From assembly GCF_003334385.1 (NCBI RefSeq), contig NZ_QOWN01000002.1: a DNA stretch of 64,000 nucleotides. The stretch is one strand, 5' to 3'. This document shows positions 1-3,000 of the stretch, in pieces. Position numbers: made by a program. The stretch comes from Escherichia coli (GTDB taxonomy: Bacteria > Pseudomonadota > Gammaproteobacteria > Enterobacterales > Enterobacteriaceae). The first letter of the stretch is position 1. Every line of letters starts with the position of its first letter.

Positions 1-3000
1 GCTTCAGCACCAGAACCGGTGAGTCTCACTCATCATCTCACTCACCAGACTTCATTCCACTGACGCCAGCCTGAACACGGCTGGCGTTTTCATTTATCTG
101 CAAAAAGGAATATCGATTATGTCTGAAATCACAGTCTCCCGTCCGGAAGTGGTCAACGAGAATACGGACGTTATCTGCTCCACCTCAGTCAGGTCCAGGT
201 CACTGGAATATGATAATTTTCCGGAAATCAGCGAAGCGAACATTCTGAGCACATTTGAACAACTGCACCAGAACAAAGATGAAGTGTTTGAACGGGGAGT
301 GATCAACGTCTTCAAAGGGCTGAGCTGGGATTACAAAACCAACTCACCCTGTAAATTTGGCAGTAAAATTATCGTCAACAATCTGGTGAGATGGGACCAG
401 TGGGGATTTCATCTTATCAGTGGAATGCAGGCAGATCGCCTGGCTGACCTGGAAAGAATGTTGCATCTGCTCAGCGGTAAACCGATCCCCGACAACCGAG
501 GGAATATCACCATTAATCTGGATGACCACATACAGTCCGTTCAGGGTAAAGGACGCTATGAAGATGAGATGTTCATCATTAAATACTTTAAGAAGGGATC
601 TGCACACATCACTTTCAAAAGGCTGGAGCTGATTGACAGAATTAACGATATAATAGCCAGGCACTTTCCTTCTGTGCTCTCAGCCTGACCCCGAGTTTGA
701 TTCCCTTTCGATATCAAAAGGGACTGCGGGTACAAAAGAGGGTACATATTTCACCAAACTAAACAAAATAAATTAATATCAACATGATAGAAGCATTCTT
801 CGATTCCGAGTCCGGCACCACTAATTCTTAAGAACCCGCCCACAAGGCGGGTTTTTGCTTTTGGATCTGACAATAACCTTCACGAAAAAAATTAGCTTAT
901 AAAGTCTGGGGGAATTACTCTCGCCACGTTAACGAGAGTAATTTTATTGATATTAATCTCCTGATACTTTACCCCCGTCCAAACTCCAGCCGCTGCACAT
1001 TCACCATCCCAGGCTTCTCAGCAGCACTGACATCAATTTGTGTCACCCGCAGCGCATATTTTTCATCCAGTGCGTTTAACCATTTCAGCAGGTCATTAAA
1101 CACCACAGGTTCTATCCAGACCTGAATATTCTCCCCACGATCGGCTATCCGCCTGATGACCACCGAGTGCGCGGAAGCACTGTCACTGATGACCCGCGAT
1201 ACCTGCGCAGGCGTTGTTGTGGCAGATTTTCGCGCTGCAATAATATCCGGCGCGGCGTTCTTCAGTCGGGTGTTCATCGCCACCAGCTGCTGCAATATTG
1301 TCTCCTGTTGCTCAATCCGTTCGCTCAACGGCTGCCAGATGAGGACGTAATATCCGACGCTAAACAGGAACACCACCGCTGCCAGTAACATGCCCTTTTC
1401 ACGCGGAGAACGCCCCGCCAGGTGTTGTGCCAGCCAGTGTTCGCCACGGCTTAACTGGCGTTCACGCCATTGCTGAAAATAGTGAATAAATTTATCGCGT
1501 AACATGTTATTTCCTCCGCAACGTTACGCCGCCGGAAACCGCATCACCCTCTTTCTGTAACGCGTCCTGTTGCACAACATAATCGGTTGCCAGTGCACTA
1601 CGCAGTTTGTCGAAACTGGCAAAGTTCGCGGCCCGTAGCTGGAGGTGAAGTATCTGGCGTTTTTGATCAAAGGTAAAACCACGCATTTCGATGTCGGAAA
1701 GTGACGCTGATTTCAGGGTGCTGGCTATCGCTGACAACTCGGCGAGCAGCCGGGTATCGTCGGCCTGTGGGCGATATTTTTTCAGCGCCATCGTCACCTG
1801 AGAGCGTAAATTCACAATCCGCTTCTGCTCCGGGAACAACGTTAAGAACTGTTCCTCCGCCTGGGTGCGGCTTTGCGCCACCTGTTCGCTGACGCTCCAT
1901 AACGTCACGCCCCGCTCCACTGCCAGCGCAACCAGAATCAGCAATATCGGCAGAATCATCACCCGCCAGCGCGCCCACTGTTTTCGGTAGCTGACGCGAG
2001 GCTGCCACGGCCCTGTCAGCAGGTTCCCTTCCGGTTCGCCATAAGTGGTAATGGCGGGCAGAGCTGTAACGGTCAGGCGTTCAGCGTCTGCGCCAGCCCA
2101 TGCTGATAGCTTTTCCGGTGCAATGCCGACTACGGTTAGCGAAAGCGGTAAATCCTGCTCATTGAGCTGGGCGCGGAACATGACCGGAGCCAGCGCCAGC
2201 CCGGCGCTCCATCCCCGGCATTCATCGATGCGGCAGATAACCCGTTGCGCATCGCAAGCCATAAACCCACAAGGAATGGACATCCAGTCCGGCGCGACGG
2301 TAGCGCGGGTGATGCCGTTTTCCTGCAACCACTGCGCAATGTTGCGCATATGCTGTTGGTGAATCACTGCTACGGTTGCCAGTTGCTGGTCGATATTCAA
2401 CGGGGCGAAATGCAGTTCATCGATATCCTGGTTCAGCTCTTCTTCCAGTAAGGCGGGCAGAATAGTCGGTATCTGCTTGCGGGCGACATCAGGCAGTTCA
2501 ACCTGCCAGACGCTGATCCATTCGCCGGGAATGTAGAGTCGAATCGCATCGGTTTGCAGCCATTGCTGAAGCTGTTCGTCAGCAACGTCAGGCCAGATAC
2601 CGTGTTCCACGTCGGGTGTACGGCGCTGCCAGCGGACGGTATCGGAGGCGCAAAGCGGGAAAAAAATCTCAAGGATGGAACTCACTCACTTTCTCCTGTC
2701 TGATGCCAGAGAACCGAAAAGTGTTGTGGGCCCATGCGGACAATTAACGAGTTCATCGTCAGTTCAATCTCATTCACGGTGATATCTGAACGCAGCCAGA
2801 AGTAATTGCTGTCCACGCTCAGGACGGTTTTTAGCTGTTTTTTAGTACGCTCATCGACGTCAGCAAGTAGCGGCTGTGCAAGAAACTGATCGACATCTTC
2901 CCAGCCCTTCGCCGGACGTTGTTGTAATAACGCCCGCGCCTGAACAGGGCTTAACCACGGGTCAAACAGCGCCTCAAGAATCACACTTTGCGTGACGTCT

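What the first reader, a model, noticed from the sequence alone, without database searches (positions are those of the whole stretch)
119..862. tRNA-Phe 3' fragment marks the right boundary of a pheV-integrated island
A 22-bp near-exact copy of the tRNA-Phe 3' end sits at 799-820 without the rest of the tRNA, followed by a strong terminator. This is the signature of an att direct repeat left by an integrase-mediated insertion at pheV. The hypothetical gene at 119-688 would then be the last island gene, with the island extending leftward beyond the window.
Basis: partly seen in the sequence, partly recalled or inferred. Interest (0 to 1): 0.6.

Follow-up and report, generated by a model that had tools for sequence, protein, structure and literature searches.

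The report
Right end of pheV genomic island
The 22-base piece of a phenylalanine tRNA gene at 799-820 is the well-known right-hand attachment scar (attR) of the large mobile "GI-pheV" island of E. coli, so the finding is correct but ordinary and already published.

Summary
Window 799-820 (TTCGATTCCGAGTCCGGCACCA) equals the last 23 nt of tRNA-Phe minus one G. No tRNA gene lies in the window.

Homology to the island-free K-12 pheV locus starts exactly at base 799. It runs through the native pheV terminator (829-857) into yghD/gspM.

Bases 1-798 are island DNA with 44.7% GC. They hold a DUF957 gene tail, a DUF4942 gene (119-688), and two tandem arm-type repeats (726-749) collinear with phage P4 attP.

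In strain G1/2, 99.97-99.99% identical over the whole window, an intact pheV and a P4-type integrase lie about 74.5 kb to the left. Aerobactin, SigA, sialic-acid, Ag43 and CbtA/CbeA modules lie between. Among the other genomes with a matching right junction whose left junction was also listed, the island measures about 47-82 kb.

About 23% of complete E. coli genomes carry this junction. A 2024 paper lists this exact attR, gap included, for many strains.

One side result is modestly new. The one-G deletion also occurs in attR fragments of unrelated islands and in island-free 75-nt pheV genes. That suggests it belongs to the chromosomal side of the site.

The parts
1..22 (+). 3' end of a DUF957 gene, the penultimate gene of the island's yee/CP4-type module
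   Evidence: RefSeq annotation of the 100% identical stretch in strain G1/2 and others
62..88 (+). Terminator-like hairpin between the DUF957 and DUF4942 genes
   Evidence: Consensus scan: 10-bp stem with 7 GC pairs plus a T-run. Function not tested.
119..688 (+). DUF4942 gene (189 aa), the last gene of the island. It is an internally shortened form of the 280-aa protein.
   Evidence: ORF list. Pfam PF13708, E = 2.5e-54. Annotated WP_001290247.1. BLASTP against the 280-aa homologue aligns residues 1-25 and 27-189 to 1-25 and 118-280.
689..798 (+). Island-side arm of attR (the P arm of the former attP). It is absent from K-12 and A+T-rich.
   Evidence: No K-12 homology left of 799. The same arm lies next to pheU attR copies.
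726..749 (+). Two tandem 12-nt arm-type repeats, TGCGGGTACAAA and AGAGGGTACATA. They are presumed integrase arm-binding sites.
   Evidence: Collinear with the annotated 'attP arm sequence repeat' pair AGTGGGGGCACA / AAAGGGGGCATA of phage P4, at a similar distance from the core. Binding is inferred, not tested.
799..820 (+). attR core: the last 23 nt of tRNA-Phe (T-loop, 3' T-stem, 3' acceptor strand, ACCA) minus one G
   Evidence: Identical to the attR published for many GI-pheV islands (PMC11537424, Table 1).
821..968 (+). Native chromosomal DNA downstream of pheV, up to yghD. The core genome resumes here.
   Evidence: Identical to K-12 MG1655 downstream of pheV.
829..857 (+). Native pheV intrinsic terminator, now separated from the tRNA gene by the island
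   Evidence: Terminator scan, fold at -19.5 kcal/mol with z = -4.5, same sequence after pheV in K-12.
969..1505 (-). yghD (gspM-beta), the first core gene to the right of the island
   Evidence: ORF and RefSeq annotation.

Best explanation

The integrase recombined an island-borne copy of the tRNA 3' end (attP) with the same sequence in pheV (attB). At the far left end (attL, outside the window) the tRNA gene was rebuilt, with island DNA and an island-supplied terminator behind it. At the right end the 3' piece of pheV was left behind, still joined to pheV's original terminator and to yghD.

Bases 1-798 are the last 0.8 kb of the island: the end of the CbtA/CbeA 'yee' module, the DUF4942 gene, and the attP-derived arm with two arm-type repeats.

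What is shown: the sequence identities, the exact junction, and the structure of the complete island in near-identical genomes. What is inferred: that the window's own genome has the same left end, that the integrase binds the 726-749 repeats, and that the site can still recombine.

The missing G makes the repeat imperfect. Equivalent imperfect 22-bp repeats support excision of Shigella SHI-1 according to the literature.
For: - The 22-mer is unique in the window, with no matches in any shuffle, and matches tRNA-Phe at 22 of 23 positions with one gap.
- No tRNA gene is present in the window.
- K-12 homology starts exactly at 799.
- GC is 44.7% left of the junction and 53.2% to the right.
- Strain G1/2 is 99.97-99.99% identical to the whole window. 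It shows yqgA, pheV, integrase, a 74.5-kb island, DUF4942, attR, yghD.
- No further exact copy of either core form (22-nt or 23-nt) lies inside that island.
- The integrase is 54.6% identical to P4 Int. It has Arm-DNA-bind_3, Phage_int_M and Phage_integrase domains.
- The reconstructed attP is collinear with P4 attP, including the arm repeats.
- 1231 of 5426 complete E. coli genomes have this right junction. 3338 of 5426 have the pheV-integrase left junction.
- An island-supplied terminator follows the rebuilt pheV at attL.
- The identical attR string, with the gap, is published for APEC O1, S88, ED1a, H10407, 55989, 042, 536, REL606 and others.
- SHI-1 excises through an imperfect 22-bp pheV repeat.
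Against: The left end (pheV, integrase) is not in the window, so its presence in this particular genome is an inference. No complete genome in the collection is 100% identical to the first 25 kb: the best has a few mismatches. Island length differs among the closest relatives, 47-82 kb. The island may be immobile now, since the G1/2 copy has many IS elements and pseudogenes. Nothing in the data contradicts the attR reading itself.
Confidence: 0.95

Rival explanations
1. The fragment is a decayed tRNA pseudogene. On this reading a second tRNA-Phe gene once stood here and lost its 5' part by local deletion, with no mobile element involved.
For: Only the 3' 22 nt remain, and they carry a 1-nt deletion.
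Against: K-12 has a single intact pheV exactly where the fragment sits, with the same downstream DNA. Near-identical genomes have that intact pheV 47-82 kb to the left, next to an integrase. The DNA to the left of the fragment is mobile-element cargo with P4-like arm repeats.
Confidence: 0.01
2. The 22-mer is a chance similarity to a tRNA end, for example a generic T-arm-like motif.
For: T-loop motifs (TTCGATTCC) recur. A 9-nt near-copy lies at 696-704.
Against: No match in 100 shuffles, even with 3 mismatches allowed. The match extends over the acceptor strand and CCA, and it coincides to the base with the K-12 homology breakpoint.
Confidence: 0
3. The site is a true attR, but in the window's own genome the island is only a remnant. 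The left part, integrase or even pheV would have been lost by IS-mediated deletion or moved away by an inversion, so the element is a fossil and not an integrase-bounded unit.
For: The G1/2 island is full of IS66, IS21, IS3 and IS4 copies and pseudogenes. Island length varies from 47 to 82 kb among close relatives. In strain NMBU-W12E19 the left junction lies 306 kb away on the opposite strand. The 2024 paper reports module deletions and islands lacking a full integrase.
Against: All seven other genomes with a 99.9-100% identical right junction that were listed in both searches keep yqgA, pheV and the integrase on the same strand, 50-76 kb away.
Confidence: 0.04

Closest known systems
GI-pheV of Escherichia coli (pheV-tRNA integrated genomic island; PLoS Genet 2024, PMC11537424), including PAI V536
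   Same: Same locus (yqgA-pheV ... yghD). Same attR string, TTCGATTCCGAGTCCGG-CACCA, as listed for 536, APEC O1, S88, ED1a, H10407, 55989, 042, REL606 and others. Same intP4-type integrase at the left end. Same flu, yee, nan and iuc/iutA modules in the nearest complete genome.
   Different: Nothing essential. The intP4 allele (intP4.1-4.5) of the nearest genome was not typed. The module mix there (SigA, aerobactin, nan, Ag43) is one more mosaic variant.
[quoted passage not shown]
   Same: Inserted directly downstream of pheV and bounded on the right by an imperfect repeat of the 3'-terminal 22 bp of pheV. It carries sigA and an Ag43-like gene. It excises by recombination between the two repeats (PMC1550401, citing Sakellaris 2004).
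   Different: SHI-1 is about 46 kb with pic/set. The nearest complete relative of this window has about 74.5 kb with aerobactin and sialic-acid modules. No direct sequence comparison with SHI-1 was made here.
Satellite phage P4 attP / attR at leuX
   Same: The integrase is 54.6% identical to P4 Int and has the same three domains. The core equals the 3' end of a tRNA gene. Two tandem arm repeats lie on each arm, plus an inverted one at the start of int, all collinear with the island's reconstructed attP.
   Different: The target tRNA is Phe, not Leu. The arm-repeat consensus is GGGTACA rather than GGGGGCA. The element is a 50-80 kb IS-ridden island with no P4 replication or capsid-size genes seen.
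CP4-44-type 'yee module' (Ag43, YeeR/S/T, CbeA-CbtA, DUF5983, DUF957, DUF4942)
   Same: The window's first 688 bases are the tail of this module. The module recurs in several islands per genome (median 2 places, up to 8) and at pheU.
   Different: Here the DUF4942 gene is the 189-aa form with an internal 91-residue deletion.

Membership tests
attR of a tRNA-integrated genomic island (GI-pheV) | Direct repeat identical or nearly identical to the 3' end of the target tRNA gene | tested here: met
   22 of 23 positions with a 1-nt gap against pheV. Not matched in any shuffle.
attR of a tRNA-integrated genomic island (GI-pheV) | The repeat lies exactly at the accessory/core boundary. An island-free strain has the tRNA gene followed by the same downstream DNA. 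| tested here: met
   K-12 homology begins at base 799. Bases 821 onward equal the K-12 pheV terminator and yghD.
attR of a tRNA-integrated genomic island (GI-pheV) | Intact target tRNA gene followed by a tyrosine integrase at the other end of the element | not testable with these tools
   This lies outside the window. It is met in strain G1/2, 99.97-99.99% identical over the whole window, and in other genomes with an identical right junction.
attR of a tRNA-integrated genomic island (GI-pheV) | DNA between the repeats is accessory and mobile-element-like (atypical GC, IS elements, cargo modules) | tested here: met
   GC is 44.7% against 53.2%. The yee module, IS elements and virulence modules appear in the nearest genome.
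P4-family (intP4) integration module | Integrase homologous to P4 Int, with an arm-binding N-terminal domain | tested here: met
   Tested on the G1/2 integrase, not in the window: 54.6% identity to P4 Int over 97% of its length. Pfam finds Arm-DNA-bind_3, Phage_int_M and Phage_integrase.
P4-family (intP4) integration module | Arm-type repeats flanking the core, arranged as in P4 attP | tested here: met
   Window 726-749 holds two tandem repeats collinear with the P4 arm repeats. The P' arm repeats were found at attL of G1/2. Protein binding was not tested.
P4-family (intP4) integration module | Int-dependent excision or integration at these sites | not testable with these tools
   Only the literature speaks to this, for related islands (SHI-1, PAI V536).
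tRNA gene (functional tRNA-Phe) | Complete cloverleaf detectable by a tRNA finder or covariance model | tested here: not met
   ARAGORN finds 0 genes in the window. Rfam gives no tRNA match at 600-1000, even at E up to 10.
Intrinsic (Rho-independent) terminator | GC-rich hairpin followed by a U-run, downstream of a transcription unit | tested here: met
   Located at 829-857. Folds at -19.5 kcal/mol, z = -4.5. In K-12 it directly follows pheV. Termination activity was not tested.
DUF4942 (PF13708) | Significant match to the Pfam profile | tested here: met
   E = 2.5e-54 over residues 27-184, matching model positions 32-189 of 190. No NCBIfam model matches.

The most novel reading that the evidence does not exclude
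The missing G may not be random decay of this copy. It may be an allele of the chromosomal, displaced pheV 3' end that survives successive island gains and losses.

P4-type integrases exchange strands in the T-loop, to the left of the deletion. Excision of the island would therefore write the defective end back into pheV, giving a 75-nt tRNA-Phe gene with a bulged acceptor stem. A later integration would repair the gene. Losing the island would then cost one of the two tRNA-Phe genes.

Supporting observations:
- The same G deletion lies in 48-nt pheV fragments that bound unrelated islands, one of them an SPI-7-type ICE (two cases checked).
- It also lies in island-free 75-nt pheV genes: 11 annotated cases, two checked.
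- The same pattern appears at pheU.
- A few genomes have a perfect 23-nt attR in the same context.
Probability: 0.4. Interest if true: 0.3.

Novelty: already known. Interest (0 to 1): 0.1.

Why it matters
As given, the finding matters only for annotation. It fixes the right boundary of GI-pheV to the base: island through 798, attR core 799-820, core genome from 821. It also tells anyone assembling or comparing this strain that roughly 50-80 kb of virulence and fitness cargo probably lies just left of the window. In the nearest genome that cargo is aerobactin, a SigA-type protease, sialic-acid use, Ag43 and toxin-antitoxin genes.

The side observation could be of modest interest for how tRNA-borne islands are stabilised and replaced. 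It concerns the G deletion travelling with the chromosomal flank and sometimes ending up inside pheV or pheU.

Tried and rejected
- An ungapped search with the full 23-nt tRNA end found nothing in the window, because the difference is an indel. The exact 22-mer search resolved this.
- Rfam at a permissive threshold gave only weak sub-threshold hits (P9, rnk leader, rli52 and others). All are driven by the terminator hairpin and I judged them chance.
- NCBIfam has no model for the DUF4942 protein. It gives only a sub-cutoff domain hit for the integrase.
- No sigma-70-like promoter was found in 1-1600.
- The 9-nt near-repeat of the core at 696-704, and the palindrome at 702-723, were considered as a second degenerate att site. 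I rejected this: the similarity is too short and the context does not form a T-arm.
- I considered that the G deletion is carried by the island, because the same arm plus deleted core also sits at pheU. The deletion also occurs in 48-nt fragments of unrelated islands and in island-free pheV. Intact-GGG attRs exist with the same arm. This makes a chromosome-linked allele the more economical reading, but neither is proven.
- No complete genome exactly identical to the window was found, so the source strain was not identified.

Full report
**Observation**

The sequence at 799-820 is TTCGATTCCGAGTCCGGCACCA. It occurs once in the 64 kb. No match appeared in any of 100 dinucleotide-preserving shuffles, even with three mismatches allowed.

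Aligned with the K-12 pheV gene, it is the last 23 nt of tRNA-Phe: T-loop, 3' half of the T-stem, 3' strand of the acceptor stem, and ACCA. One G of the GGG run is missing. An ungapped search with the full 23-mer finds nothing for that reason.

The rest of the tRNA is absent. ARAGORN reports no tRNA in the window. A permissive Rfam scan of 600-1000 gives no tRNA hit, only weak sub-threshold matches driven by the neighbouring hairpin.

The hairpin at 829-857 fits an intrinsic terminator: a 12-bp stem followed by a T-run. The stretch 821-866 folds at -19.5 kcal/mol, z = -4.5. The ORF at 119-688 is present and encodes 189 aa.

**What it is**

K-12 MG1655 has no island at pheV. There the order is yqgA, pheV, 148 bp, then yghD. 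The window aligns with that locus from base 799 onward and not before. From 821 on it is identical to the DNA that follows pheV in K-12, terminator included. So 799-820 sits exactly on the boundary between accessory and core DNA, and the terminator is pheV's own.

To the left, GC drops to 44.7%, against 53.2% for 821-21000. The genes are a DUF957 tail (1-22) and a DUF4942 gene (Pfam PF13708, E = 2.5e-54).

The window is 99.97-99.99% identical along its whole length to E. coli strain G1/2. In that genome the region to the left reads as follows:
- yqgA and a 76-nt tRNA-Phe
- a 420-aa tyrosine integrase and an AAA protein
- a SigA-type autotransporter
- iucABCD/iutA (aerobactin)
- a sialic-acid (nan) cluster
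- many IS66, IS21, IS3 and IS4 copies
- a disrupted Ag43-type autotransporter
- the IrmA, DUF905, DUF932, antirestriction, RadC-like, DUF987, CbeA, CbtA, DUF5983, DUF957, DUF4942 module
- then the 22-nt repeat and yghD

The distance from the 3' end of pheV to the end of the repeat is about 74.5 kb. No further exact copy of either core form (22-nt or 23-nt) lies inside.

Six other genomes have a 100% identical right junction and also appear in the left-junction list. All six keep the pheV-integrase junction on the same strand, 50-76 kb away. Two slightly less identical genomes give 47 and 82 kb. One strain, NMBU-W12E19, has the junction 306 kb away on the other strand, which suggests an inversion.

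**Mechanism**

The G1/2 integrase is 54.6% identical to phage P4 Int over 97% of its length. It has the Arm-DNA-bind_3, Phage_int_M and Phage_integrase domains.

I rebuilt the attP of the island by joining the attR arm (window 700-798), the core, and the attL arm of G1/2. The result is collinear with P4 attP as annotated in NC_001609:
- Two tandem 12-nt arm repeats lie upstream of the core. In the window they are TGCGGGTACAAA and AGAGGGTACATA at 726-749. In P4 they are AGTGGGGGCACA and AAAGGGGGCATA.
- Two more lie on the integrase side.
- An inverted one lies just before int.

The window therefore holds a structurally complete attR: arm sites plus core. Protein binding is inferred, not shown.

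At attL the rebuilt pheV is followed by an island-supplied hairpin and T-run. This replaces the native terminator, which was left behind at 829-857.

The standard model for such elements is that the island restores the split tRNA gene, and the displaced 3' fragment marks the far end (abstract of PMC4383910, seen). For P4-like integrases targeting phe tDNA, the attB begins in the T-loop (bioRxiv 10.1101/2020.11.02.365908). That is where the repeat starts here.

**Comparison with what is known**

This is GI-pheV. The 2024 study of that island (PMC11537424) gives TTCGATTCCGAGTCCGG-CACCA, gap included, as the attR of APEC O1, S88, ED1a, H10407, 12009, CB9615, 55989, the O104:H4 outbreak strains, 042, 536, 11128 and REL606. 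It describes the flu, yee, nan and iuc/iutA/sat modules and the intP4 integrase alleles. It found GI-pheV in 62% of a reference set.

In the 5426 complete genomes searched here, 3338 (62%) have the yqgA-pheV-integrase junction. 1231 (23%) have the DUF4942-attR-yghD junction.

[quoted passage not shown] PAI V536 is reported to excise as well (PMC7545054), and it has this same attR.

**Additional result on the missing G**

The same DUF4942 arm with the same G-deleted core also bounds islands at pheU. There it is followed by the K-12-type pheU downstream DNA and the yjdQ integrase remnant.

At pheV, 17 genomes carry tRNA nucleotides 28-75 with the G deletion, joined to the native terminator.
- Eleven are annotated as tRNA-Phe. 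The two I examined, E1654 and M9682-C1, are island-free: yqgA, a 75-nt pheV, the terminator, an IS110 remnant, then kps. The 75-nt RNA still folds as a cloverleaf, but with a bulged acceptor stem, at -27.0 against -34.1 kcal/mol.
- Six have no tRNA annotation. The two I examined, strains 1506 and rl0044, have a 48-nt pheV fragment as the right end of other islands. One is an SPI-7-type ICE with ParA, DnaB-PI and ParB.

The pheU analogue gives 12 records, 2 annotated as tRNA-Phe and 10 not. Several are copies of strain NC101, and none were inspected.

Conversely, at least six genomes have the DUF4942 arm joined to a perfect 23-nt repeat. Two of them, EC14 and ECCTRSRTH03, were verified.

Taken together, the most economical reading is that the deletion belongs to the chromosomal side of the site, with strand exchange to its left. 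Integration into a G-deleted pheV would then repair the gene, and excision would leave a scarred one. I hold this at about 0.4 for three reasons. The GGG-to-GG slip could be recurrent. The scarred-pheV genomes may be few lineages. Homopolymer sequencing errors were not excluded.

**Verdict**

Interest is low. The only mildly new angle is the population behaviour of the one-base deletion.

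Noticed in passing
window 119-688: The DUF4942 gene is a 189-aa form. Compared with the 280-aa homologue at a pheU island (L010 1787-2629), it lacks about residues 26-117 in frame and is 93% identical elsewhere. Both the 189/190-aa and 280-aa forms occur at this junction in other strains.
   Followed up: partly
L009 2740-2761 and L010 2740-2761 (pheU loci of strains Z1323CEC0002 and 2273-PO3): The same DUF4942 arm and the same G-deleted 22-nt core also form the attR of islands at pheU. They are followed by the K-12-type pheU downstream sequence and the yjdQ integrase remnant, before cadC.
   Followed up: yes
L011 3948-4022 (E1654) and L015 2974-3048 (M9682-C1): These are island-free pheV genes of 75 nt that carry the same G deletion in the acceptor 3' strand, followed by the native terminator. 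Eleven complete genomes are annotated this way. The predicted fold keeps the cloverleaf with a bulged acceptor stem. This could be an excision scar, an independent slip, or a sequencing error.
   Followed up: partly
L013 3001-3048 (strain 1506) and L014 3001-3048 (strain rl0044): A 48-nt 3' fragment of pheV, starting at the anticodon stem and also G-deleted, bounds other islands at the same site. In rl0044 the island is an SPI-7-type ICE with ParA, DnaB-PI and ParB. A similar set of 10 records exists for pheU and was not inspected.
   Followed up: partly
L018 1239-1261 (EC14) and L019 1239-1261 (ECCTRSRTH03): A minority of genomes have the same island arm and flank but a perfect 23-nt attR with GGG intact. 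At least six appear among the rows shown.
   Followed up: partly
window 2472-10467: Most of the type II secretion system beta operon (part of gspL through gspC) is intact here but deleted in K-12, where only yghD, yghE and yghF remnants remain.
   Followed up: partly
window 28527-36915: An 8.4-kb cluster lies between yghO and yghQ. It encodes a fatty acyl-AMP ligase, an epimerase, an acyl carrier protein, a serine palmitoyltransferase-like Spt, LptF/LptG paralogues, a YtfJ-family protein and a hypothetical protein. In K-12 it is replaced by an IS5. The flanking DNA is 99.99-100% identical to K-12. Its function was not examined.
   Followed up: partly
NZ_CP042892.1 (strain NMBU-W12E19), 3553175-3554174 and 3860270-3861960: The right junction is 99.9% identical to the window. 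The pheV-integrase junction lies 306 kb away on the opposite strand, which suggests a large inversion with a breakpoint inside the island.
   Followed up: no
window 19739-19960, 45200-45276, 56246-56316, 62097-62160: Rfam matches above the gathering score: C0719 sRNA, two naRNA4 (REP-type) elements, and ES173 sRNA.
   Followed up: no
L003 5754-5777 (strain G1/2, minus strand): The rebuilt pheV at attL is followed by an island-borne hairpin plus T-run (AACGGACCTCCACGGAGGTCCGTT TTTCG). It is nearly identical to the sequence after pheU in K-12. The native-looking pheU downstream region therefore appears itself to be an old P4-type island arm.
   Followed up: partly
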